Assembly: GCA_044226545.1 (NCBI GenBank)
Contig: JBGAGW010000003.1
Location: forward strand, 431,823-495,822
DNA length: 64,000 nt
Source of the DNA: Limisphaerales bacterium
GTDB taxonomy: Bacteria; Verrucomicrobiota; Verrucomicrobiia; Limisphaerales; SXQI01
Direction of reading: 5' to 3'
A program made the position numbers and the translations under genes. This document shows positions 23,948 to 38,017 of this stretch, in pieces; positions within the stretch are counted from its first letter, which is position 1, and every line of letters starts with the position of its first letter. Below the pieces are notes generated by a model that saw only the letters and a program-made list of their open reading frames with translations, did no database searches and had not been told where the DNA came from.

Positions 23948-24103
23948 AAAAACAAAGCGACGGAGTTGGCGGTTGCGCGGCATGTCTGAGGACTCACGGC
24001 GGAAGTGCCCAAGCACAATCGTGCATTCCGAAAAGCAAGGCCCCAAAAGAAAATGCACCCGGGCCGGATTGCGCCGAGTGCGTCACGAGATCGGAGTTTC
24101 GTT

Positions 24104-25114
24104 CTAGCGCTTCACGAGTTTCCGTCGCAAAGCCGCGATCGAGGCCAATGCAGTTCCCAGCAGACCAAGGGTAGAGCCTGCGTCCGGAGCACCGGTGGGA
24201 GGGGGAGCTCCGGCTCCGACCATCGGCGCGACATCGTCCAGAAAATTTGCGAGAAACTTTGTAGAAATAAAGTTGCCAGCCTCGTCGATATCCTTAGTGC
24301 CGGAATAATCCACGAAGGTCAGGGAGCCTCCGTTCCCCGCGGCAAAAATGTGACCTTTGCCGTCAACTGATCCCTGGTCGAAACTTTGCCCGGGCACAAG
24401 TAGGGCACCAACGACCACCCAGCCATTCGGATCAGGATCGATTTGGGTCAGGTGGTCACCCTCCATCGCAATCAAGTTTCCCGAGAACGGATCAAACGCC
24501 ATGCCGTGCGCTATATCACTGTTCAATTTCCGTGTTGTCGTAAAGGTGGTTAAGTCGATTATGCCAACACCGACCGGACTCGCATAATAAGCCGTTCCAT
24601 CTGGTCCGAAGGTAATGGTTTGGATGTTCAAATCGTCCCCGTTGAGAGGGTGTGCCGTCCCGTTAGCAAAAGGTGTTAAAGGGATAGTCGCAACGCCAGA
24701 GGACTGATAGTGCATCGCATATGCCTGATTCCCCGCAGGATCCACGGCGAGGTGGAACGCTCCAATCCCGCCGGCGGTCTTGGTCGTGAAAGTTCCTGTG
24801 CCAGGATTCACCTTATGCACAGCATTTGCCTGCCCGCCAATAAGCAAATCGCCATCCGGCGCGAAAACGATCCCGTCTGCTCCACCCGTGGACGCAATGT
24901 TTTGCACATTGCCCAGTGTGAATGTAGTTCCGTCATAATCGTATGCGACCTTGTTAACGTTTTGGCCGCCGTTATATGTGGTGAAGAACAAATCTCCAGA
25001 GGTCGGGTCGGCCTTTGCATTGGCAAGATTAAGCAAGGCGATTATCACCGCTGCTAAAGAGGCCTTAGGGAAGGCGCTCCTTCGCGACATTCTTTTAGCA
25101 ATCATTTGGTCCAT
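24104..25114 (-). CDS. Secreted beta-propeller-like protein with a PEP-CTERM sorting tail
   Basis: It has a signal peptide (..MSRRSAFPKASLAAVIIALLNLANAKA). The C-terminus GAPDAGSTLGLLGTALASIAALRRKLVKR has the PEP-CTERM architecture: motif, TM helix, then a basic tail. Three in-frame ATGs (25114, 25105, 25090) are possible starts. Confidence 0.75.
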   Translation of the reverse strand: MDQMIAKRMSRRSAFPKASLAAVIIALLNLANAKADPTSGDLFFTTYNGGQNVNKVAYDYDGTTFTLGNVQNIASTGGADGIVFAPDGDLLIGGQANAVHKVNPGTGTFTTKTAGGIGAFHLAVDPAGNQAYAMHYQSSGVATIPLTPFANGTAHPLNGDDLNIQTITFGPDGTAYYASPVGVGIIDLTTFTTTRKLNSDIAHGMAFDPFSGNLIAMEGDHLTQIDPDPNGWVVVGALLVPGQSFDQGSVDGKGHIFAAGNGGSLTFVDYSGTKDIDEAGNFISTKFLANFLDDVAPMVGAGAPPPTGAPDAGSTLGLLGTALASIAALRRKLVKR

Positions 25115-25487
25115 ATATTGTATCTGTTTGGTTTGATTTCCTCCTTTTGAGCGTCCTTGCTCAAAAAGTATTCCCAACACCAGGCAGAGAAGTGCTGAAA
25201 CCGCTCCTTCGAGCAAACGCCGAGCCAAAATTAGGAGCGGCCAATGCTGCTGATGTTAGTGCTTCAGCTGCAATTGAATTGCGCTGAGCTTTGCGAGGAC
25301 GATGCTAGTCGGAGCCTGACAGGCTAAGACATTATTGTAAATCTATTTACCAAATTACTCTCGCGAATGGCGAAGGAGGAATCGCCCAGTTCCGAAGTTT
25401 GCCCCCCGATTAGCTAATCTTGTTCCGCAAACGGCGCGATGCATCGTGAGAAATTCAAAAAAGATCAAGAAAAAGTCGTTGACGCCG

Positions 25488-25535
25488 ATGGGTAGAAAAG
25501 GGTACAAAAAGGGAGAAAACGGTAGATTGCGGGTA
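25488..25535 (+). promoter_or_regulatory. Array of five phased GGGTA-like boxes; candidate MraZ operator
   Basis: The boxes are GGGTA (25489), GGGTA (25500), GGGAG (25511), GGTAG (25521) and GGGTA (25531). Spacings are 11, 11, 10 and 10 nt, separated by A-rich spacers. The array ends 11 nt before the mraZ ORF. E. coli MraZ binds phased TGGGN direct repeats with a 10-nt period. Confidence 0.55.
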
Positions 25536-25545
25536 AAAGCCCACT

Positions 25546-26013
25546 TTGAAAGATCGCGCACAGTCTCCGGAGCAGGTGGATTACACCGGTCATTTCCGAC
25601 ACGGAATTGATGGGAGCAGAAGAATCATGCTTCCGGCCAAATGGAGGCCTCGCGATGCGGATACGAAGTTCACGATCATTCCGTGGCCCATCGGGAATGA
25701 AGATCGGCTGCTTGTGCTACCGCCGGATCGCTGGCGCGAAATGCTCGCGAAATTGAAAACACGGTCGCTTTCGGATCCGCGCATCGAAGCGCTCGAGCAG
25801 GAAATCGCCGAGAACGCGGCGCAGGTGACGCCGGACAAAGTTGGCCGGATCGGTTTGCTCGAGGAACATACGCGGGCGGTAAAGATTTCCGATGAAGCGG
25901 AGTTGGTCGGGCGTCTCGACAAGTTCGAGATCTGGCAACCGGCCGCGCGCGACGCGATCCGCACGCGCAATAAGAAGTTGGCCGCCGAGGTCTTGAAGGA
26001 AATTGACCTATGA
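25546..26013 (+). CDS. mraZ: Transcriptional regulator MraZ
   Basis: Two SpoVT/AbrB-like halves are visible: FRHGIDGSRRIMLPAKWR and PDKVGRIGLLEEHTRAVKI..ELVGRLDKFEIWQP. The start could be the TTG at 25546 or the in-frame GTG at 25576. Confidence 0.85.
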   Translation: MKDRAQSPEQVDYTGHFRHGIDGSRRIMLPAKWRPRDADTKFTIIPWPIGNEDRLLVLPPDRWREMLAKLKTRSLSDPRIEALEQEIAENAAQVTPDKVGRIGLLEEHTRAVKISDEAELVGRLDKFEIWQPAARDAIRTRNKKLAAEVLKEIDL

Positions 26014-26056
26014 ACCGGCGGAACAGAAAGAATTTCTCACGGTTGCGAGTCGAAGG

Positions 26057-26091
26057 GCGCGCCGTTCCGTGCCGAACCTGGGACGGCGCGC
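26057..26091 (+). other. GC-rich hairpin between mraZ and the LysM gene
   Basis: GCGCGCCGT (26057-26065) pairs with ACGGCGCGC (26083-26091), giving a 9-bp stem and a 17-nt loop. There is no U-run, so it is not a classic terminator. Confidence 0.3.
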
Positions 26092-26157
26092 ACCTTAAAG
26101 CCAAAGCGGTGACTCGCGGGGTTCCTCCTCCGCATTTCAACCCATTCCTCCCGAGCC

Positions 26158-26751
26158 ATGAGCGAAACAACTAGCCTGAACACGGAATTGCTTTCTGCCG
26201 ACGCGCGTGGACGCAAACATGTCCCATTCGCCGTCTTCGCGGTGATCCTCGTGCACATCATCCTATTCCTTGTGCTGCTGATCGCTGCGGGATGCCGAGC
26301 GAAAGCGCGCGCCAAACGGAATCTCCAGCCCGCGCCGGAAATGATGGCGCAGAAGGCCCCGCAACCCCTTTTGGCTATTGCCCCCCTCTCAACGAACGCT
26401 CCTGCTCCAACGCCAGCTCCAGCGACGCCGCTAGGGATTGCTCCAGCGTTGATCCAACCGGTGATCGCGACTGAACCGCCATTGGAAAAAGCCGTTACTT
26501 CTCCTGCGCCCATTCGCAAAGCCGCGCAAAAGAGTTCGCCTGCTCCATTGCAACGTCCAACCGCGAACCAGACGCGCAAAGCGAAAGTGTATGTGGTCAA
26601 GGCGGGCGACACCTTCGAGAAAATCGCTAAGATGCACGGCACCTCTGTGCAGGCGATCAAATCTGAAAACAATCTGAAAAATCAACTGTTGAAACCTGGT
26701 CAACAACTTCGGGTCAGCAGCCAGAAACCAAAAACATCCACCGAGGTTTAA
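26158..26751 (+). CDS. LysM domain membrane protein
   Basis: It has an N-terminal TM helix (VPFAVFAVILVHIILFLVLLIAAG) and a P/A-rich linker. The C-terminal LysM domain is YVVKAGDTFEKIAKMHGTSVQAIKSENNLKNQLLKPGQQLRV. Confidence 0.85.
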   Translation: MSETTSLNTELLSADARGRKHVPFAVFAVILVHIILFLVLLIAAGCRAKARAKRNLQPAPEMMAQKAPQPLLAIAPLSTNAPAPTPAPATPLGIAPALIQPVIATEPPLEKAVTSPAPIRKAAQKSSPAPLQRPTANQTRKAKVYVVKAGDTFEKIAKMHGTSVQAIKSENNLKNQLLKPGQQLRVSSQKPKTSTEV

Positions 26752-27189
26752 GCATGGAAACTTCCACATCGACAATTTCCGGGACGAGTAGCGTTGTTGT
26801 CTGGGTCATAGTGAAGGGGACAGAGCAGTAGTCGCTCTGTCTCCTCTTGCCCCGCTATCTCCCTTTTCGACCGTTGAAGCATTCTCATTTGGAAAATGCG
26901 ACAACGGCATCAAGCTCCGTACTGCCCCTGCCCTTCTGCCAGGGGTTCGCAGAAAAAGGCTACACCTTCGATGATTTGATGATTCGGCGAGCCATAAGAC
27001 GCGTTCAACAACTTCAGCTCAGGCGTTCAGGAAAAGCCTGAGTGCCATTGAGTGTTACCATCAAAATCCTTTAGAGATCAGTCCCGCTGTGAGCGACCTT
27101 GGTTCTTTTGTTTACTACGCCCAGGTCGGCGCAGTCAGGGACGCTTGAGGAAAAACGGGCGGGCTGGGCCGGAGGAAAAAACCAAGAAT

Positions 27190-27300
27190 ATGTTAACACT
27201 CATTAAAGTCGCGGTCGCAGTGGCGATCGGGTTCGCTTTCGTCAATCCATCTTCGACCCCGAAGGCGGATGCCAACTGCAAATGCCACGCCGATACGTGA
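27190..27300 (+). CDS. Small Cys-containing pre-peptide, paralog 1 (36 aa)
   Basis: The peptide is MLTLIKVAVAVAIGFAFVNPSSTPKADANCKCHADT*. It is embedded in ORF-track entry 27052..27300. The ATG at 27190 is fixed by alignment to paralog 2, and a GGAGG lies upstream at ~27171. The two paralogs differ at 17 synonymous versus 9 nonsynonymous codons. Confidence 0.65.
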   Translation: MLTLIKVAVAVAIGFAFVNPSSTPKADANCKCHADT

Positions 27301-27356
27301 AAAGCGTGGCTGCTGTTTAATACAGCGCCGTTAAGGATAATCGCAAAACCAAGCCT

Positions 27357-27470
27357 ATGTTGACTCTTATCAAAATCGCGGTGGCGGTGGCCATCGGTTA
27401 CGCGTTCGTGGATCCTTCGTTCTCACCAAAGAGCGCGGGAGCCAATTGCAAATGTTCGGCAGACGCGTAG
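27357..27470 (+). CDS. Small Cys-containing pre-peptide, paralog 2 (37 aa; absent from the ORF track)
   Basis: Hand translation gives MLTLIKIAVAVAIGYAFVDPSFSPKSAGANCKCSADA*. An in-frame TAA 36 nt upstream prevents any extension. The AAAACCAAG motif upstream of the ATG is shared with paralog 1. Confidence 0.65.
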   Translation: MLTLIKIAVAVAIGYAFVDPSFSPKSAGANCKCSADA

Positions 27471-27512
27471 GAAAACGCGACCCAACACAATAATGCAGCA
27501 GGATTTGGAGCT

Positions 27513-27592
27513 TCCTCCACTCGGCGGTTCCTCCGACTCGCAACGGTGCAAATGTTGGTCGGTAAAAATTCCTGCAAGGACCGAGTGGAGGA
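27513..27592 (+). promoter_or_regulatory. Candidate structured RNA element between the peptide genes and lgt
   Basis: A 12-bp outer stem pairs TCCTCCACTCGG (27513-27524) with CCGAGTGGAGGA (27581-27592). It encloses an inner CCGAC/GTCGG helix (27533-27537 / 27558-27562). A CUC-UUCG-GAG tetraloop hairpin follows at ~27620-27640. Confidence 0.3.
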
Positions 27593-27662
27593 TGATTTGG
27601 GGCCGGTTTCATTGTGGATGGGGACTTCCACTCTTCGGAGGGAAGCCAGGGGAAGTGGGTGA

Positions 27663-28562
27663 ATGAAACCGGCCCTCTTTACGTACCCTTATGTAGCATC
27701 GTACTCTACCATGATGTTACTCGGCTTTGTCGCCGGTTGGTGGCTGGCCCGCCGACGCGCCCCCCTCTTCGGCATGGCGCCGAAGCACATGGACAATATC
27801 GGACTGATCCTGCCACTGGCGGGACTTTTCGGCGCACGGTTTTTCGCCCGCCTTTTCTACGCAAAAGTTCCATTCGTTGAAGCGCTGAAATTCTGGGAAG
27901 GCGATGGTCTGGTTTTCTACGGCGGTTTTTTATTCTGCATCGCGGCCATTTTGATTTATGGCGCAGTTCGCAAACTAAATCTGGTGAAGCTGTGTGACTG
28001 CCTCGCACCGAGTGCGGCTGTCGGCCTGGCTTTCGGACGCGTCGGGTGTTTTCTCGGCGGCTGCTGCTGGGGAGATCTCTGCGTGGATAGCGCAACACTC
28101 TCCCGGATCGACCGTGATGTGGCCCAGCAAATCCACACCGTGCCGGCGATTTCCCGGGACAATTGGTTTATGGCCGTCCGTTTCCCGCCGAAGAGCGAAC
28201 CGTTCAAGCAGCAGGTAAAGCTCGGATTAATCAGCGCCAACGCCGAAATATCGCTCCCGGTCCATCCGGTGCAGTTGTACGAAGCGGTCCTCGCCGGATT
28301 GGTCGCCTGGTTACTGCACCGGCGGTTTCGCCCCGGCGAAACTGGAGGCGCCTCGTTAGGTTTGCTCGCGGGCTATGCCGTGGTTCGCTTTTTGACCGAG
28401 TATTTACGGGCAGATAATAAGCCCTATGCATTGGGGCTCACCATTTCTCAGGTCATTTCGGTGGAGATTTTCTTGTTTTGCGGAGCGGCGCTCATCATCG
28501 GACAACTGATACGAAAAAAGGACGAGCCGCGCCGCGTGGTTGGCCAGACGATAACCGCCTGA
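27663..28562 (+). CDS. lgt: Prolipoprotein diacylglyceryl transferase, paralog 1 (with insertion)
   Basis: The call rests on YSTMMLLGFVAGWWLARRRA..., GLVFYGGFLF, GRVGCFLGGCCWG and HPVQLYEAVL. A ~45-aa insert lies between the GCCWG and HPVQLYE motifs. Confidence 0.9.
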   Translation: MKPALFTYPYVASYSTMMLLGFVAGWWLARRRAPLFGMAPKHMDNIGLILPLAGLFGARFFARLFYAKVPFVEALKFWEGDGLVFYGGFLFCIAAILIYGAVRKLNLVKLCDCLAPSAAVGLAFGRVGCFLGGCCWGDLCVDSATLSRIDRDVAQQIHTVPAISRDNWFMAVRFPPKSEPFKQQVKLGLISANAEISLPVHPVQLYEAVLAGLVAWLLHRRFRPGETGGASLGLLAGYAVVRFLTEYLRADNKPYALGLTISQVISVEIFLFCGAALIIGQLIRKKDEPRRVVGQTITA

Positions 28563-28718
28563 CAATTGCGATTTGCGGCGCTGCGGGCGCCAAGATTCGC
28601 AGATAATCAGCGCTGTCATCCGGGCGCCTTACGCCTGGGTCGGTTTCTTTGCGCCCATTACAAAAAGCTTACAGAAAAGTAATGCAACAAACCACCACGT
28701 TGCGGGGTCAACGAGATC

Positions 28719-29003
28719 ATGAACGCAGTATGGTGCGAAGTTGGAACAAGACATTATCCGGCCGTGGAAATTGCGCCGCAGCATTACGCGCGCGTGGGAG
28801 TGCTGCCCGCCCAGCAACGGCATTGCCCGTTTTGCGATTCGATCATTTACAGCCGGCGCCACAAGCTCTGCGGTGTGTGCTCTCACGAACTGCCCGAGCA
28901 GATTTTGTTCAGTCCGGAGCAGGCAAACAACGTGACGTCGATGCTCCGTGACGAACAACAGCGGCACCGCGCGTGGTTGCATCGAAATAACTTTGCGAAC
29001 TGA
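28719..29003 (+). CDS. Hypothetical zinc-ribbon protein
   Basis: The 94-aa protein has a CPFC-x11-CGVC motif. There is no other homology signal. Confidence 0.45.
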   Translation: MNAVWCEVGTRHYPAVEIAPQHYARVGVLPAQQRHCPFCDSIIYSRRHKLCGVCSHELPEQILFSPEQANNVTSMLRDEQQRHRAWLHRNNFAN

Positions 29004-29080
29004 GTGGCAAAAATTTCGGAATATTTTTGAGCAATTGCGGCCTTTGACGAATCCAACAGAAAGCGATACAAAAAGAGTAG

Positions 29081-30160
29081 ATGACCGGGAGACGCATTTC
29101 GATTCTTGTAGCCGCCATTTTTGGCTGCGCCGCGGCTGTTTACGCCGCCGATAACAAAGTTGAATTGCGAGGCAGCACTGAGCTCGATTTGCCCAAGCCC
29201 AAACGGAACATCGATACGGATCGAAAGTTAAACGATCAACCTGACCGTCCCACCCCTGAAGGCGCGTTGCCGCCGGGACGAGTCGACAATTCCCCATTGT
29301 TGAACAAAAAAGTTCGCCAGGAACTCGACAAGCAGAAGAACTGGATCTTCATGAATCCGCGGGAGCAGCAGTTTGACAGCAAAGCTGAAGAGTTCATGAA
29401 AGGCGAAAAGGGAACTGGACTGTATGGGAACCGGTTGATGCAGAGCGATGATGACCGCACGATGGTCCAGAAATTTCTAGAACGCGATCAGCGCAATCGC
29501 GACGACAAGGATGATGATCGAGACAATGATCGATCTGATCGTTCGAAAGACAAGGACAGTTTTCTGCCGAAGCGTGATGACGACGATCTGAAGGAGAACA
29601 CGAGGGATGGCGGTATTCCGAAGTCGCAGTTTGATACCGCCATTTTCAAGTCAGGACCCGGCGCCGATCCATTTGGCGGCGGTCTCCTCGATAACAAAAT
29701 GCAGCGCACTCCCTTCAGTGATTCGAATTTCTCTGGCCAGAACGCACGAGCGCTGGATAAAGACGAACTTCGGCAACAACAGATCGCCCACGAGCAGGAG
29801 TTCAATAGTATCCTCCAGTCCCGGCCCGGTTCGTCGACCTCTTTCGGCAAGATCGATACGTTGAATCCTGCAGCCGATGTGGGGCGCCTTGACATCGGCG
29901 GGACGTCAGGACGCCGTTCCGATCCCTACGCGGTCGGCGCGCGCGGAGGCCCAAACATCGCCACGTTTACCGACGGGGCACCTTCTTCTTTTGGTAATCG
30001 TTCGGAAATCGGTGCGCGAAATTTTGCCGATAGCTTGCCCTCATTCGGTGCTCCGCAGGCGGGCCCTTCCTTCGCACCGGCGCCTATTCAGGTGCTCCCG
30101 AATCGTTCCAGCGCTCCCCCACCCTCCATCGCGCCCACTGTTCCGATGCGAAAGTTTTAG
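29081..30160 (+). CDS. Hypothetical secreted, highly charged low-complexity protein
   Basis: It has a signal peptide (MTGRRISILVAAIFGCAAAVYA) and a D/R/K-rich segment (DQRNRDDKDDDRDNDRSDRSKDKD). Its stop overlaps the moeA stop as TTAG at 30157-30160. Confidence 0.6.
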   Translation: MTGRRISILVAAIFGCAAAVYAADNKVELRGSTELDLPKPKRNIDTDRKLNDQPDRPTPEGALPPGRVDNSPLLNKKVRQELDKQKNWIFMNPREQQFDSKAEEFMKGEKGTGLYGNRLMQSDDDRTMVQKFLERDQRNRDDKDDDRDNDRSDRSKDKDSFLPKRDDDDLKENTRDGGIPKSQFDTAIFKSGPGADPFGGGLLDNKMQRTPFSDSNFSGQNARALDKDELRQQQIAHEQEFNSILQSRPGSSTSFGKIDTLNPAADVGRLDIGGTSGRRSDPYAVGARGGPNIATFTDGAPSSFGNRSEIGARNFADSLPSFGAPQAGPSFAPAPIQVLPNRSSAPPPSIAPTVPMRKF

Positions 30161-31362
30161 GCTTCCGGCAGTTCCCAAATTATCGCTCTGACGCGACTTC
30201 CCGGCTTCAGCTCGGCCCCTGGCGGAAGGTCGAGTAACCCGTTCGCCTGGCTCAGTGAGCCGATCATGTGCGACTTCTGACCGCCAACCGAAAAAATTTG
30301 CCCGTTCTCCCAACGCACGCGGACGAAGTGTCTGCGATCGCCGCGATTGATCATTGAGTCAGTGAGTTCGCCTTCAATTATTGGCCACCCGCAATTCGTC
30401 GCCCCCTGCATTTTCAGAATGGCGGGTCGGACCAGCAGAAGAAAAGTGACGAAACCTGAGACAGGATTGCCCGGCAAACCGAAGAGAAATTTTCCATTCA
30501 GTTGGCCGAAGGTGAACGGTTTTCCCGGACGCATCGCGATTTGCCACAGGTCCAGCGAGCCACCCAGCGCCTGAAATGCCTGCTTCACAAAATCGTATTC
30601 ACCGACCGAAACCCCTCCGCTGGTGATGACCAGGTCCGCACTGGCAAAGGCACGGGTAAGTGCGTCCATCGTGCTCTGTAGATTGTCTGGCACAATTGGA
30701 TGTTGATCGATCACGCATTTCAATGGCGCAAGAAAGGCGCTTAGCATCGCTCGATTGCTCTCATAAATGGTTCCAGAACGAAGCTCAGCTCCTGGTTCGA
30801 GCAATTCATTACCCGTCGCGAGCACGGCAATTCGGCAACTCCTACGGATCGGCACGGACGCGAACCCGGTTGCCGCCAGCAAACCGATACGCGTCGCAGT
30901 CAATCTTACACCGGCGGTCACAACGGTCGCGCCTGCGCGGACATCTTCCCCGCGCAGTCGAACGTTCTCGAGTGGCTTCACTGGCTCGACAAAACGAACC
31001 TGATCGCCTTCGCCCCCAACATCTTCCTGCATCACCACCGCATTGGCGCCCTCCGGCATCATCGAACCGGTAAAGATACGGGCGCATTGCCCAGCGGTCA
31101 GTGCGTTCTGCGAATGCTCTCCTGCAGCGACGCGCCTAGTGCATTGAAGGATTACCGGGCGGTCGACGGTGGCCGTTTTCAAGTCCTCCCATTGAACCGC
31201 GTAGCCATCCATCGCGGAATTATCGAAGCCGGGCAGATCCACCCTGGCGAATAGATCGCTCGCAGCGTAGCAGCCGGGGGCTTGGGCAAGCGGAGCATTG
31301 ATTTGGGAAAGCGGCGTTACTGCAGCAAGAATGCGCGCGCTCGCATCTTCAACTGAAATCAT
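30157..31362 (-). CDS. moeA: Molybdopterin molybdotransferase MoeA
   Basis: The call rests on MISVEDASARIL..., LPGFDNSAMDGYAV, ITSGGVSVGEYDFVK and LPGNPVSGFVTF. Confidence 0.93.
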   Translation of the reverse strand: MISVEDASARILAAVTPLSQINAPLAQAPGCYAASDLFARVDLPGFDNSAMDGYAVQWEDLKTATVDRPVILQCTRRVAAGEHSQNALTAGQCARIFTGSMMPEGANAVVMQEDVGGEGDQVRFVEPVKPLENVRLRGEDVRAGATVVTAGVRLTATRIGLLAATGFASVPIRRSCRIAVLATGNELLEPGAELRSGTIYESNRAMLSAFLAPLKCVIDQHPIVPDNLQSTMDALTRAFASADLVITSGGVSVGEYDFVKQAFQALGGSLDLWQIAMRPGKPFTFGQLNGKFLFGLPGNPVSGFVTFLLLVRPAILKMQGATNCGWPIIEGELTDSMINRGDRRHFVRVRWENGQIFSVGGQKSHMIGSLSQANGLLDLPPGAELKPGSRVRAIIWELPEA

Positions 31363-37130: not shown

Positions 37131-37240
37131 GACTGCGATCCTACTCTTTCGCCGAACGCGGGTAAAGCTCGCCGCGAAGTCGAACGGGGTTTTTCCCTCG
37201 CTTGTCATGCCTTCCGTCAGGCCGTAACTTCGTCTCTCCG

Positions 37241-38017
37241 GTGGATAACGTCGCATTCGAAATTTTCGGCTTTCAGATCTATTGGTACGGCATTTTGGCT
37301 GCCGCGGGTTTTCTCTTTGGGTTCGGCACGGCGAGCCGCCGCGCTCCGCGCGCGGGACTCAAAGGGGAGGACATCTACAATCTCGCACCATGGATCATCG
37401 TTGGGACAGTGATTGGCGCTCGCCTTCTTTACGTCATCTCATATTGGGACAAGGAATTCGCCGGGCAACCGCTCACGCACATTTTCAACATGCGCTCGGG
37501 GCTGGTTTATTACGGAGGGCTGATCGGCGCGTCTCTCGGGACGATTCTCTACACCCGGAAAGCGAAAGTGCCTCTCTGGCGGCTTGCTGACGTGATGGCT
37601 CCGAGTGTTCCGCTTGGCCACGCCTTCGGCCGGGTAGGCTGTTTCATGACCGGTTGTTGCTACGGTAAGGCGTGTAGTCTTCCCTGGGCGGTTCATTTTC
37701 CGAAGGAACATTGGACGCAGGGCATTGGCGTTCACCCGGTCCAGCTCTACGAGAGCGGCTTAAACCTGCTCTTTTACGCGCTGCTGGCCTGGCTTTTCCA
37801 AAGGCGAAAATTCGATGGCCAGATATTCGCCATTTACCTGATGGGTTACGCCATTCTTCGCGCCTTCACCGAGACGTTTCGCGGCGATTACACTCAGCAT
37901 TACCTGGGCGGAATTCTAACGCCCGGCCAGGCGGTGAGCATCCTCATTTTCGCTCTCGGAGTGGCTCTGTGGATCTGGCGTGCCCGTTTGCGAACACCGA
38001 AGCTCGCTCCCGCGTAG
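37241..38017 (+). CDS. lgt: Prolipoprotein diacylglyceryl transferase, paralog 2 (canonical length)
   Basis: The call rests on FEIFGFQIYWYGILAAAGFLFG, GLVYYGGLIGA, GRVGCFMTGCCYG and HPVQLYES. The start could be the GTG at 37241 or the TTG at 37202. Confidence 0.9.
   Translation: MDNVAFEIFGFQIYWYGILAAAGFLFGFGTASRRAPRAGLKGEDIYNLAPWIIVGTVIGARLLYVISYWDKEFAGQPLTHIFNMRSGLVYYGGLIGASLGTILYTRKAKVPLWRLADVMAPSVPLGHAFGRVGCFMTGCCYGKACSLPWAVHFPKEHWTQGIGVHPVQLYESGLNLLFYALLAWLFQRRKFDGQIFAIYLMGYAILRAFTETFRGDYTQHYLGGILTPGQAVSILIFALGVALWIWRARLRTPKLAPA

What the first reader, a model, noticed from the sequence alone, without database searches (positions are those of the whole stretch)
27190..27470. Tandem hidden genes for signal-peptide-plus-octapeptide precursors with an invariant NCKC core
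Two adjacent ORFs encode MLTLIKVAVAVAIGFAFVNPSSTPKADANCKCHADT (27190-27300) and MLTLIKIAVAVAIGYAFVDPSFSPKSAGANCKCSADA (27357-27470, not in the ORF track). They share 27 of 36 aligned residues. At the DNA level they differ at 17 synonymous versus 9 nonsynonymous codons plus one codon indel, which is the signature of selection on the protein. An AAAACCAAG element is conserved before both ATGs. Each peptide reads as a Sec signal: n-region MLTLIK, a 12-residue h-region, and a c-region ending in an AxA site (A-D-A and A-G-A). That site sits exactly before the invariant N-C-K-C. Cleavage would release the 8-residue dithiol peptides NCKCHADT and NCKCSADA. No RiPP maturase, dedicated exporter or receptor is adjacent. 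The neighbours are a LysM protein and an atypical lgt paralog. Candidate roles are a secreted or periplasmic metal-binding (Cys/His) peptide, a disulfide-cyclised signal peptide, or uncleaved small membrane-anchored proteins.
Basis: partly seen in the sequence, partly recalled or inferred. Interest (0 to 1): 0.75.

Follow-up and report, generated by a model that had tools for sequence, protein, structure and literature searches.

The report
Cysteine mini-proteins paired with Lgt paralog
Two unannotated 36-37-residue membrane-anchored proteins with a Cys-x-Cys tail belong to a Verrucomicrobiota family that always sits just upstream of a divergent copy of the lipoprotein-lipidating enzyme Lgt, so they are probably that enzyme's dedicated partners or substrates, not precursors of a secreted octapeptide.

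Summary
Two tandem ORFs (27190-27300, 27357-27470) encode paralogous 36/37-aa peptides under purifying selection, and neither is in the protein collection searched. About 70 relatives, all from Verrucomicrobiota MAGs or metagenomes, keep only a conserved hydrophobic N-terminus, a Pro-rich linker and C-x-C-x-A. "NCKC" and the AxA site are local to this lineage, and no member has a lipobox. Many relatives carry two or three tail modules (PRADDCECKAKA) behind a single N-terminal helix.

The key finding is synteny. In 22 of 22 informative peptide loci the next gene is one divergent Lgt paralog, and all 3 loci fetched through that paralog have the peptide upstream. The flanking genes vary. The window also holds a canonical lgt at 37202-38017. 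The paralog keeps the Lgt catalytic residues and fold, but lacks arm-1 and has a roughly 40-aa head insertion, in the regions reported to set substrate specificity.

Best explanation (about 0.4): the mini-proteins are dedicated acceptor substrates of the paralog. Rivals are a small subunit or regulator, or a tethered metal or redox peptide. Two conserved RNA structures with no Rfam match flank the peptide genes.

The parts
27109..27116 (+). TGTTTACT box, a promoter-like conserved motif about 75-85 nt upstream of the first peptide ATG
   Evidence: GTTTACT aligns in the window and 12 close-clade loci even though the upstream genes differ. The only other copy in the window is inside a coding region and looks like chance. 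Its function is inferred, not shown.
27132..27169 (+). Bulged hairpin in the 5' UTR of the peptide gene: outer helix, 5-nt 5' bulge, inner hairpin, flanked by conserved TTnAnAGC and AGCGGC
   Evidence: It is present in 20 of 21 aligned loci, including the distant multi-module branch. 7 of 9 consensus pairs keep pairing through changes on both sides. No Rfam match.
27178..27186 (+). A-rich AAAACCAAG element directly upstream of the copy-1 ATG
   Evidence: These are the only two + strand occurrences in the window (27178 and 27345). AAAAAACCAA is conserved before the ATG in the close clade only.
27190..27300 (+). Peptide gene copy 1, 36 aa: MLTLIKVAVAVAIGFAFVNPSSTPKADANCKCHADT
   Evidence: The HMMER profile search finds about 15 true relatives.
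27307..27330 (+). Hairpin after the copy-1 stop codon, with no U-run
   Evidence: Centroid energy -11.8 kcal/mol, z = -0.84, so it is not significant on its own. It sits where relatives carry a GC-rich hairpin plus U-run after the peptide stop.
27345..27353 (+). A-rich AAAACCAAG element upstream of the copy-2 ATG
27357..27470 (+). Peptide gene copy 2, 37 aa: MLTLIKIAVAVAIGYAFVDPSFSPKSAGANCKCSADA
27514..27591 (+). Leader RNA helix A: CCUCCACUCGG (27514-27524) pairs with CCGAGUGGAGG (27581-27591), enclosing the conserved GGUUCCUCCG and UUCCUGCAAGG stretches
   Evidence: An 11-bp helix. 4 of its pairs show changes on both sides and 96% of cells are paired across 12 sequences.
27600..27675 (+). 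Leader RNA helix B: GGGCCGGUUUCAU (27600-27612) pairs with AUGAAACCGGCCC (27663-27675). It buries the start codon of the lgt paralog and encloses an inner hairpin at 27625-27645.
   Evidence: A 13-bp helix, 97% paired, with 2 compensatory pairs. In the inner hairpin 7 of 8 pairs are compensatory. For the whole structure, 13 pairs are compensatory against 4.7 +/- 1.4 in shuffles (0 of 500 shuffles reached that), and 94% of cells are paired against 40-57% when partners are slid.
27663..28562 (+). Divergent Lgt paralog ('LgtP'), 299 aa, the invariably linked partner gene
   Evidence: PF01790 at 2e-45. TIGR00544 at 101 bits, below the 118.9 cut-off. The catalytic R, Y and E residues are kept. AF2 pLDDT is 89, and the only significant PDB match is E. 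coli Lgt 5azb. It lies downstream of the peptide gene in 22 of 22 informative loci.
37202..38017 (+). Canonical lgt of the same genome. It is context only and not part of the cassette, but it shows that 27663-28562 is an extra paralog.
   Evidence: TIGR00544 at 173 bits, above the 118.9 cut-off. It is 32% identical to LgtP and lies next to an rluD-like gene.

Best explanation
Shown: the two ORFs are real genes of a previously unannotated family of mini-proteins found only in Verrucomicrobiota. Each protein has a conserved N-terminal hydrophobic helix (M-L-T-L-I-K-I-A-V-A-x-A-I-G-F-A-V). A Pro-containing linker of 10-13 residues follows. Then come one to three copies of a polar tail module centred on C-x-C-x-A: PKAxDA(N/S)CKCSADA in this clade and PRADDCECKAKA in the distant clade. 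The family forms a two-gene cassette with a divergent paralog of prolipoprotein diacylglyceryl transferase (LgtP, 27663-28562). LgtP retains the Lgt fold and catalytic residues. It lacks arm-1 and carries a conserved head-domain insertion of about 40 residues. The same genome keeps a canonical lgt elsewhere.

Inferred mechanism: the mini-proteins insert N-in/C-out, with the helix in the inner membrane and the Cys modules in the periplasm. They serve as the dedicated acceptor substrates of LgtP. LgtP transfers a diacylglyceryl group from phosphatidylglycerol to one or both thiols of each C-x-C module. Recognition would use the paralog-specific head and arm region instead of a lipobox. The product would stay uncleaved, as a small protein anchored by both helix and lipid, and multiply lipidated in the multi-module forms. 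Its downstream role is unknown.

Also inferred: expression looks set for excess peptide over enzyme. The peptide gene has its own conserved 5'-UTR hairpin and an A-rich leader. Most relatives have a hairpin plus U-run after the peptide stop. In this clade the lgtP start codon is buried in a conserved leader RNA helix.

Confidence in the shown part (real genes, functionally coupled to LgtP, not a secreted octapeptide) is about 0.85. Confidence in the substrate mechanism is about 0.4, and that is the figure entered in the confidence field.
For: (1) Coding and selection. dN/dS is 0.03-0.24, and synonymous sites are saturated between the window's two copies while pN is 0.13. The frame is kept in all homologs.
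(2) Synteny. In 22 of 22 peptide loci with enough downstream DNA (17 distinct peptide sequences), the next gene is LgtP-type: 45-67% identical to the window's LgtP against 29-35% to the canonical Lgt. In all 3 loci fetched through distant LgtP proteins (46-48% identical), a peptide gene lies 74-87 nt upstream. The flanking genes differ between loci: LysM, AMP-binding, IGPS or amidohydrolase upstream, and convergent unrelated genes downstream.
(3) Enzyme chemistry fits the conserved feature. Lgt alkylates a Cys thiol (PMC4728403), and the only invariant polar feature of the peptides is C-x-C.
(4) LgtP looks active. The equivalents of R143, Y235, R239, E243, R246 and E202 are kept, and most are invariant in 58 sequences. 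The AF2 model has pLDDT 89, and E. coli Lgt is its only significant PDB match.
(5) LgtP differs from the canonical paralog in arm-1 and the head domain. Arm-2, H103 and the head domain have been shown experimentally to set protein-substrate specificity (PMC13251419).
(6) The module is amplified by two independent routes: tandem gene duplication in three lineages (window, L020, L022) and intragenic repeats (2 modules in 12 proteins and 3 in 28, out of 67). Each repeat carries its own flanking motif. This is what one expects of enzyme recognition sites or substrate dosage, not of a 1:1 subunit.
(7) A GC-rich hairpin with a U-run sits between the peptide gene and lgtP in L001, L007, L008, L015, L017 and L019, and the lgtP start codon is sequestered. 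Both fit a high ratio of peptide to enzyme.
Against: There is no biochemical evidence of any kind. No member has a lipobox. The -1 residue is Asp in 92 of 135 modules and -3 is never L, V or I, so if LgtP acts on these cysteines it must recognise a completely different and partly acidic motif. The cysteines lie 10-13 residues beyond the hydrophobic segment, whereas canonical acceptor cysteines abut it. In the window itself the hairpin-plus-U-run between peptide and lgtP is absent. The structured leader is confined to one clade: spacers are only 67-119 nt in L020, L021, L027 and L029. Small single-helix proteins encoded next to membrane enzymes are often subunits or regulators (my own knowledge: CydX, KdpF, MgrB, PmrR). 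The D/E/H/C-rich module also looks like a metal or redox site. One contig without retrievable DNA (P0009) has its downstream gene called on the opposite strand and may be an exception. Topology was inferred from sequence only.
Confidence: 0.4

Rival explanations
1. The mini-protein is an accessory subunit or regulator of LgtP. It would be a small single-helix protein that binds LgtP in the membrane and tunes, inhibits or stabilises it, possibly reporting periplasmic redox or metal status through the C-x-C tail. The peptide itself would not be lipidated.
For: The gene pair is strictly conserved. The hydrophobic helix is conserved in sequence with small residues every 2-4 positions (A8, A10, A12, G14, A16), a helix-packing pattern. 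From my own knowledge there is precedent for small proteins under 50 aa acting on adjacent or partner membrane proteins: CydX, KdpF, AcrZ, PmrR-LpxT, and MgrB-PhoQ with functional periplasmic cysteines.
Against: Intragenic repetition of the tail module two or three times (40 of 67 proteins) and recurrent tandem gene duplication are not expected for a stoichiometric subunit. The hairpin plus U-run between the genes in relatives suggests unequal expression. The enzyme's chemistry targets exactly the residue type that is invariant in the peptide.
Confidence: 0.25
2. The mini-protein is a membrane-tethered metal-binding (metallothionein-like) or redox-active C-x-C peptide. The periplasmic modules would chelate a thiophilic metal, or act as a mini thiol-disulfide oxidoreductase, for example servicing the Cys-rich signature motif of Lgt in this lineage. 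LgtP would be linked only indirectly.
For: The module is rich in classical ligands (P-H/R-A-D/E-D-C-E-C-K), with N/S-C-K/S-C strings like those in metallothioneins (the comparison is from my own knowledge). Module and gene amplification is typical of metal-sequestering proteins. Both Lgt paralogs here carry GRVGCFxxGCCxGxxC, with Cys in place of E. coli N146, E151 and L152, which offers a possible redox client.
Against: It gives no reason for the invariable adjacency to one specific Lgt paralog while the canonical Lgt, which has the same Cys motif, has no such neighbour. There are only two Cys per 12-18 residues. No metal-resistance or Dsb genes are conserved nearby.
Confidence: 0.15
3. One reading: Sec-exported precursors are cleaved by signal peptidase I after AxA, releasing free dithiol octapeptides (NCKCHADT and NCKCSADA) that act as secreted metal-binding or signalling peptides.
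For: Both window copies have an n-region, a 12-residue h-region, and A-x-A immediately before N-C-K-C.
Against: The -3 residue is D, N, K or E in 15 of 18 informative family members. NCKC is not conserved: SCKC, SCNC, KCDC, DCEC and others occur. The 'signal' segment is as conserved as the tail. The multi-module forms cannot yield such an octapeptide. The proposed c-region of 10-11 residues is long. No exporter or receptor is present.
Confidence: 0.05
4. The ORFs are cis-regulatory upstream ORFs (leader peptides). Their translation, not their product, would control lgtP through the downstream leader RNA, as in an attenuation or arrest-peptide monitor of the SecM, MifM or VemP type.
For: Their position is upstream of a structured leader that sequesters the lgtP start codon. 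They have a signal-like N-terminus, as monitoring substrates do (my own knowledge).
Against: The amino-acid sequence is conserved along its full length with saturated synonymous sites. Tandem and intragenic amplification occur. The structured leader is absent in clades that still keep the peptide-LgtP pair. The stop codon lies about 45 nt upstream of helix A, too far for a terminating ribosome to melt it. At 36 aa the peptide is too short for the hydrophobic segment to leave the exit tunnel before termination. A candidate coupled second uORF is not conserved.
Confidence: 0.05

Closest known systems
Canonical bacterial lipoprotein pathway (Lgt acting on lipobox prolipoproteins; PF01790, TIGR00544)
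   Same: The partner enzyme has the Lgt fold and catalytic residues. The peptide has a short positively charged n-region and a hydrophobic segment followed by cysteine. The enzyme's chemistry targets a Cys thiol on the periplasmic side (PMC4728403).
   Different: There is no lipobox: -1 is mostly Asp and -3 is never L, V or I. The Cys lies 10-13 residues beyond the hydrophobic segment. There is a C-x-C doublet and repeated modules. The enzyme is an extra paralog below the equivalog cut-off, lacks arm-1, and has a roughly 40-aa head insertion. It is strictly adjacent to a single substrate family, whereas canonical Lgt serves a genome-wide set of substrates.
Extra lgt copies co-encoded with their likely substrates (for example plasmid-borne lgt with conjugation lipoproteins; two lgt genes in Streptomyces coelicolor and Mycobacterium smegmatis), as summarised in PMC13251419
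   Same: A second Lgt copy in a genome, sometimes encoded alongside the proteins it is presumed to modify.
   Different: Those substrates are ordinary lipobox lipoproteins. No dedicated mini-protein with a non-lipobox C-x-C module has been described in the literature I searched.
Dedicated sorting-enzyme and target pairs (exosortase/PEP-CTERM, rhombosortase/GlyGly-CTERM, specialised sortases with an adjacent single target); comparison from my own knowledge
   Same: A paralog of a general protein-processing membrane enzyme is encoded next to its own small cognate target. The target carries a variant recognition motif and its gene is often tandemly duplicated.
   Different: The enzyme family and the chemistry differ (lipid transfer to Cys rather than transpeptidation). 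The motif is internal or C-terminal C-x-C and is repeated.
RiPP precursor and maturase cassettes; comparison from my own knowledge
   Same: Short precursor genes are present in tandem copies or with several core repeats. They lie directly upstream of a modifying enzyme, often with an attenuating hairpin between precursor and enzyme genes.
   Different: There is no recognisable RiPP maturase family, recognition element, protease or exporter. The peptide keeps a conserved membrane helix, and the enzyme is an integral membrane lipid transferase.
Small membrane-protein subunits and regulators (CydX, KdpF, MgrB, PmrR); comparison from my own knowledge
   Same: Single-helix proteins under 50 aa that gene callers often miss and that are functionally tied to a larger membrane protein. 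MgrB uses periplasmic cysteines.
   Different: Here there are repeated polar tail modules and recurrent duplication, and the linkage is to an enzyme whose substrate atom is a Cys thiol.
Entericidin-type tandem small lipoproteins (ecnA/ecnB); comparison from my own knowledge
   Same: Tandem paralogous genes for envelope peptides of about 40 aa with a hydrophobic N-terminus and Cys.
   Different: Entericidins have a canonical lipobox next to the h-region and are processed by the general pathway. The present family has no lipobox and matches no Pfam or NCBIfam model.

Membership tests
Sec-type signal peptide cleaved by signal peptidase I | Positively charged n-region followed by a hydrophobic h-region of about 7-15 residues | tested here: met
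   MLTLIK followed by a 12-residue h-region. Mean Kyte-Doolittle hydropathy of residues 2-18 is 1.8-2.9 in 19 members.
Sec-type signal peptide cleaved by signal peptidase I | Small uncharged residues at -1 and -3 of the cleavage site (AxA rule), conserved in the family, with a short c-region of 3-7 residues | tested here: not met
   AxA is present in only 3 of 18 informative members. The other 15 have D, N, K or E at -3. The c-region would be 10-11 residues long.
Sec-type signal peptide cleaved by signal peptidase I | Predicted or observed cleavage (SignalP, N-terminal sequencing) | not testable with these tools
   No signal-peptide predictor and no experimental data were available.
Bacterial lipoprotein (Lgt/LspA substrate) | Lipobox [LVI][ASTVI][GAS]C directly after the h-region (PMC4728403; PROSITE PS51257-type rule) | tested here: not met
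   None of 19 peptides matches the PS51257-like pattern. Over 135 modules, -1 is D92, S17, N15, G4, K3, T3, E1, and -3 is never L, V or I.
Prolipoprotein diacylglyceryl transferase Lgt (for the partner gene 27663-28562) | Pfam PF01790 domain above the gathering score | tested here: met
   155 bits against a cut-off of 24.9, E = 2e-45.
Prolipoprotein diacylglyceryl transferase Lgt (for the partner gene 27663-28562) | Equivalog-level score (TIGR00544), meaning the same function as housekeeping Lgt | tested here: not met
   101.4 bits against a cut-off of 118.9. The second lgt in the window scores 173.3.
Prolipoprotein diacylglyceryl transferase Lgt (for the partner gene 27663-28562) | Essential residues R143, Y235, R239, E243 and R246 (E. 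coli numbering; PMC4728403) | tested here: met
   They align to R126, Y238, R242, E246 and R249, and all are invariant in 58 LgtP sequences. N146 and E151 of the signature motif are Cys in both paralogs of this genome.
Prolipoprotein diacylglyceryl transferase Lgt (for the partner gene 27663-28562) | Lgt fold | tested here: met
   The AF2 model has pLDDT 89.3 and pTM 0.85. Foldseek against the PDB gives 5azb at E = 1.1e-9, probability 1.00, TM 0.61/0.64, and nothing else below E = 0.2.
Prolipoprotein diacylglyceryl transferase Lgt (for the partner gene 27663-28562) | Diacylglyceryl transfer from phosphatidylglycerol to a protein Cys | not testable with these tools
   This needs an enzyme assay or mass spectrometry.
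RiPP biosynthetic cassette | Short precursor gene or genes adjacent to a modifying enzyme | tested here: met
   The peptide-LgtP adjacency holds in all informative loci.
RiPP biosynthetic cassette | A recognised RiPP maturase family, leader-recognition element, or dedicated protease or exporter in the cluster | tested here: not met
   Only the LGT family is conserved. The flanking genes vary.
Regulatory leader peptide (attenuation or arrest uORF) | Conservation limited to key codons or an arrest motif, with ribosome position coupled to an alternative RNA structure | tested here: not met
   The amino-acid sequence is conserved along its full length with saturated synonymous sites. The peptide-LgtP pair persists where the structured leader is absent. 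The stop codon is about 45 nt from helix A.
Known RNA families (Rfam 15) for the two conserved RNA structures | Match to a covariance model | tested here: not met
   No match at E <= 1 anywhere in 24000-31000 on either strand.
Known small-protein families (Pfam, NCBIfam) | Match to a profile HMM | tested here: not met
   No credible hits for the one-, two- or three-module peptides at E up to 1-10.

The most novel reading that the evidence does not exclude
LgtP is a peptide-dedicated S-lipid transferase that attaches diacylglycerol to internal, non-lipobox C-x-C cysteines of ribosomally made mini-proteins, up to six sites per chain in the three-module forms. That would be the first Lgt-type lipidation outside the lipobox and N-terminal-Cys rule, in effect a ribosomal multi-lipidated lipopeptide pathway, expressed under two new cis-regulatory RNA structures.
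Probability: 0.3. Interest if true: 0.85.

Novelty: new variant of a known kind. Interest (0 to 1): 0.72.

Why it matters
Lgt is treated as a single-function housekeeping enzyme with one recognition rule, the lipobox, and it is an antibiotic target. A widespread paralog (462 protein clusters at E <= 1e-20) locked to its own family of non-lipobox Cys-x-Cys mini-proteins would have three consequences. First, the Lgt scaffold would have been re-targeted to a different acceptor motif through its arm and head domains. Second, it would provide a natural enzyme-substrate or enzyme-regulator pair in which to study how Lgt picks its protein substrate, since the acceptor complex has never been captured structurally (PMC4728403). 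Third, it would add an unannotated class of envelope mini-proteins to a major soil phylum. It also shows how short genes missed by gene callers can hide the functional partner of an 'ordinary' annotated enzyme. Finally, it supplies two covariation-supported RNA motifs that are absent from Rfam.

Tried and rejected
1. A second upstream ORF (window 27592-27666, GGAGG followed by ATG, ending in an ATGA overlap with the lgtP start) looked like a translational-coupling device in the window, L001, L007 and L008. I rejected it because L010, L012, L016 and L017 have no such ORF. The conserved nucleotides are read in different frames, and the 'ATGA' simply reflects LgtP starting with Met-Lys.
2. A 'CDC' motif in the window's LgtP, as a possible counterpart to the peptide C-x-C, is not conserved in orthologs.
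3. The lipobox reading of A-N-C was rejected by rule and by family variation.
4. An antisense gene was ruled out. The best minus-strand frame is interrupted in 5 of 19 genes and is the usual open frame opposite Ala/Val-rich codons.
5. The second TGTTTACT in the window (58720, minus strand) lies inside a coding region and is a chance match.
No complex model could be made, and the tool returns no coordinates in any case.
8. The sigma-70 promoter scan found nothing in 26500-28000. The single terminator-like hit lies inside copy 1 and is below the number expected by chance.
9. Four literature searches found no description of this gene pair.
10. Two HMMER hits to long Ala-rich proteins (P0014, P0015) and the chimeric or frameshifted entries P0004, P0008 and P0011 were excluded as non-members or assembly artefacts.
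Full report
1. OBSERVATION. The ORF at 27190-27300 encodes MLTLIKVAVAVAIGFAFVNPSSTPKADANCKCHADT, and the ORF at 27357-27470 encodes MLTLIKIAVAVAIGYAFVDPSFSPKSAGANCKCSADA. The two align with 28 identical columns and one indel. Of 36 aligned codons, 11 are identical, 17 differ only synonymously and 8 differ non-synonymously. By Nei-Gojobori, pS is 0.75 (saturated) and pN is 0.13. So the duplication is old and both copies have been held by selection on the protein. AAAACCAAG occurs on the + strand of the window only at 27178 and 27345, immediately before the two start codons. The neighbours are a LysM protein (26158-26751) and an LGT-family gene (27663-28562). A VPDSG-CTERM protein nearby and the named MAGs recovered later place the window in Verrucomicrobiota. 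Neither peptide sequence is present in a collection of about 15 billion predicted proteins, so they are unannotated there.

2. THE FAMILY. No Pfam, NCBIfam or Rfam model matches. Searches with the concatenated pair and with a two-sequence profile found relatives in metagenomes and MAGs. All named sources are Verrucomicrobiota, Verrucomicrobiia or Verrucomicrobiae, Limisphaerales or Verrucomicrobiales. The consensus of 15 single-module members is MLTLIKIAVAxAIGFAVxNPSFTPKAxDAxCxCxADA, and the invariant positions are K6, I13, P20, A29, C31, C33 and A35. A later member, L015, has Ser at position 20. Homologs have stop codons a few codons upstream of the MLTLIK methionine, which fixes the start. 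Wherever synonymous divergence is measurable, dN/dS is 0.03-0.24. The best antisense frame is broken in 5 of 19 genes. These are therefore real protein-coding genes, and the function lies in the protein.

3. WHAT IS NOT CONSERVED. 'NCKC' is not invariant. The family shows SCKC, SCNC, NCSC, KCSC, KCDC, GCSC, ECQC, DCAC and, in a large branch, DCEC or DCQC. No member matches a lipobox rule. Over 135 modules, -1 is Asp 92 times, S or G only 21 times, and -3 is never L, V or I. The hydrophobic segment is conserved in sequence, with small residues every 2-4 positions. A Sec signal that is cut off and discarded would not behave this way.

4. REPEATED MODULES. Loci fetched through distant Lgt-paralog proteins carry an upstream peptide with the same kind of N-terminus but repeated tails. 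L027/L028 encode MIIPLKIAAAAGIALAVLGPGFTPRADDCQCKAKAGTAAFMVPRADDCQCKAKADAIGAMVPRAEDCECKAKANK, with three modules. L029 and L024/L025 encode two modules. A search with the three-module protein found 39 clusters. Among 67 family members, 27 have one module, 12 have two and 28 have three. The module consensus is [V]-P-[R/H]-A-[D/E]-D-C-[E/Q/K]-C-K-A-[K/D]-A. Tandem gene pairs also arose independently in the window, L020 and L022. The unit under selection is therefore an internal C-x-C module whose copy number is raised by two different routes. It is not an octapeptide released from a signal peptide.

5. THE INVARIABLE PARTNER. In all 22 peptide-containing loci with enough downstream DNA (17 distinct peptide sequences), the next gene on the same strand is an LGT-family protein. 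It is 45-67% identical to the window's 27663-28562 product but only 29-35% identical to a second Lgt that I found in the window at 37202-38017. In the reverse direction, all 3 loci fetched through distant paralog proteins have the peptide gene 74-87 nt upstream. Two more peptide and paralog cluster pairs share exact contig lengths, but I did not confirm by sequence that they share a contig. The genes on either side differ from locus to locus. One contig without retrievable DNA (P0009) has its downstream gene called on the opposite strand and remains a possible exception. The copy at 37202-38017 passes the TIGR00544 equivalog cut-off (173 versus 118.9 bits) and sits next to an rluD-like gene. 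The peptide-linked copy scores 101 and fails the cut-off. So the genome has a housekeeping lgt plus a divergent paralog ('LgtP'), and LgtP forms a two-gene cassette with the mini-proteins. The LgtP family has 462 clusters at E <= 1e-20, and the best 120 are at least 45% identical. That is many more than the annotated peptides, which fits gene callers missing the small ORF.

6. THE PARALOG AS AN ENZYME. The residues that the E. coli structure paper found essential or mutation-intolerant (R143, Y235, R239, E243, R246; PMC4728403) align to R126, Y238, R242, E246 and R249 in LgtP. All are invariant in 58 LgtP sequences. An AlphaFold model built from that alignment is confident (pLDDT 89.3, pTM 0.85), including residues 140-200. 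Its only significant PDB match is E. coli Lgt (5azb; E = 1.1e-9, TM 0.61/0.64). Compared with the canonical paralog and E. coli Lgt, LgtP lacks the arm-1 hairpin of about 12 residues. It also carries a conserved insertion of about 40 residues in the periplasmic head (…T.P.[IL]S…FP.KS..[FY]KQH..LGL…SLPVHP). Shortening arm-1 is tolerated in E. coli (PMC4728403). Arm-2, H103 (naturally W or Y in other phyla) and the head domain were shown by domain swaps and mutagenesis to determine protein-substrate specificity (PMC13251419). LgtP therefore looks like an active transferase whose acceptor-recognition surfaces have been remodelled. Both paralogs of this genome share an unusual Cys-rich signature motif (GRVGCFxxGCCxGxxC), so that feature is not specific to the paralog.

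7. RNA FEATURES OF THE CASSETTE. (a) A bulged hairpin lies about 35-45 nt upstream of the peptide ATG (window 27132-27169), flanked by conserved TTnAnAGC and AGCGGC. It is present across the whole family, and 7 of 9 consensus pairs are kept through compensatory changes in 20 sequences. (b) A GTTTACT box (27109-27116) is conserved in the close clade and often follows a terminator-like hairpin of the unrelated upstream gene. (c) In most relatives a GC-rich hairpin with a U-run follows the peptide stop codon (L001, L007, L008, L015, L017, L019; z from -1.1 for L017 to -3.2 for L008). The window has only a non-significant hairpin after copy 1 and nothing after copy 2. (d) In the 12 closest lineages the roughly 190-nt spacer before lgtP is as conserved as the coding sequence. 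It folds into an 11-bp helix (27514-27524 with 27581-27591) and a 13-bp helix (27600-12 with 27663-75) that buries the lgtP AUG, plus an inner hairpin (27625-45). Across the structure 94% of cells pair, against 40-57% when partners are slid. 13 pairs show compensatory changes, against 4.7 +/- 1.4 in shuffles, and 0 of 500 shuffles reached 13. More distant clades have short spacers of 67-119 nt without this leader. So the leader is a clade-specific regulatory layer and not the basis of the peptide-LgtP link. None of these elements matches Rfam.

8. MECHANISM. Shown: these are real genes, a conserved family, strictly coupled to an apparently active and remodelled Lgt paralog. There is no conserved SPase I site and no lipobox, the modules are repeated, and conserved RNA structures flank the genes. 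Inferred, as the best explanation at about 0.4: the mini-proteins insert with the helix in the inner membrane and the C-x-C modules in the periplasm. They are the dedicated acceptors of LgtP, which adds diacylglycerol from phosphatidylglycerol to the module thiols, and the product stays uncleaved. The arguments are these. The enzyme's chemistry targets the only invariant polar feature of the peptide. Each repeat carries its own flanking motif, like a recognition site. Copy number is repeatedly amplified. The paralog differs from the housekeeping enzyme precisely where acceptor specificity is determined. The expression signals favour more peptide than enzyme. The arguments against are the complete absence of a lipobox, acidic residues next to the Cys, the distance of the Cys from the helix, and the absence of any biochemistry.

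9. COMPARISON AND NOVELTY. The cassette works most like a dedicated enzyme-target pair, as with exosortase or sortase paralogs and an adjacent cognate target, or like a RiPP precursor-maturase pair, but built on the Lgt scaffold. It is not a member of the lipoprotein, SPase I signal, RiPP or leader-peptide classes by their defining features (see the membership table). Extra lgt copies are known: about 1,300 genomes have two, and plasmid copies are co-encoded with conjugation lipoproteins (PMC13251419). Four full-text searches found no description of an Lgt paralog linked to non-lipobox C-x-C mini-proteins. I rate it a new variant of a known kind. If lipidation of internal C-x-C sites were demonstrated, it would break the lipobox rule for this enzyme family.

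10. VERDICT. Interest is 0.72. The finding is robust and unannotated, it reframes an 'ordinary' lgt annotation, and it makes a sharp claim testable by mass spectrometry. The mechanism remains inferred.

Noticed in passing
window 27514-27675: There is a conserved structured leader RNA of about 160 nt upstream of the lgt paralog. An 11-bp helix and a 13-bp helix bury the start codon, and there are two invariant single-stranded stretches (GGUUCCUCCG and UUCCUGCAAGG) that resemble anti-Shine-Dalgarno sequence. It has covariation support and no Rfam match. The ligand or regulator is unknown.
   Followed up: yes
window 27132-27169 (and the equivalent position in L001-L029): A small bulged hairpin in the 5' UTR of the peptide gene is conserved across the whole family, including distant multi-module loci. 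7 of 9 pairs are compensatory. It could be an mRNA-stabilising 5' hairpin or a protein-binding site.
   Followed up: partly
window 27109-27116: A TGTTTACT box is conserved about 75-85 nt upstream of the peptide ATG in the close clade. It often lies just after a terminator-like hairpin of the unrelated upstream gene and may be a -10-like promoter element.
   Followed up: partly
window 37202-38017 and 27663-28562: Both Lgt paralogs carry a Cys-rich version of the Lgt signature motif (GRVGCFxxGCCxGxxC). Cys replaces E. coli N146, E151 and L152, and Tyr replaces H103. This implies a different hydrogen-bond network, or disulfides or metal, near the phosphatidylglycerol site in this lineage.
   Followed up: partly
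L001 669-687, L007 600-619, L008 6488-6508, L015 529-555, L017 1494-1512, L019 1677-1698: A GC-rich hairpin (GCCUGUGG…CCGCAGGC) followed by a U-run sits directly after the peptide stop codon in most relatives, like a leaky terminator. It is missing after copy 2 in the window.
   Followed up: partly
window 24104-25228 (-): A 374-aa secreted protein ends in a VPDSG-CTERM sorting motif (PF18205, 27.9 bits). That implies an exosortase-type sorting system in this organism.
   Followed up: no
window 25546-26013: An MraZ homolog (PF02381) is followed by the LysM protein and the peptide cassette, not by rsmH and the cell-division cluster.
   Followed up: no
window 29081-30160: A 359-aa ORF has an N-terminal hydrophobic segment and long low-complexity stretches rich in D, R, K and P, with no Pfam match. 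It lies downstream of the lgt paralog but is not conserved in other loci.
   Followed up: no
L008 6364-6684; proteins P0004, P0008, P0011: Database entries for some family members are artefactually long. In P0004 (L008) the peptide frame is shifted, and the lgt gene on that contig is split across frames, probably assembly indels. P0008 looks similarly frameshifted. In P0011 the ORF is fused to an unrelated N-terminus. This helps hide the family in protein databases.
   Followed up: partly
L001 1759-2286 (-), L007 1719-2231 (-): A GNAT (Acetyltransf_3) gene lies convergent and immediately downstream of the lgt paralog in one sub-clade only. It is not conserved elsewhere, so it is probably unrelated.
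   Followed up: no
window 27357-28562: Peptide copy 2, the spacer and the lgt paralog are all in the same reading frame, separated by only two stop codons (TAG at 27468 and TGA at 27660). This is probably coincidence, and no read-through signal was examined.
   Followed up: no
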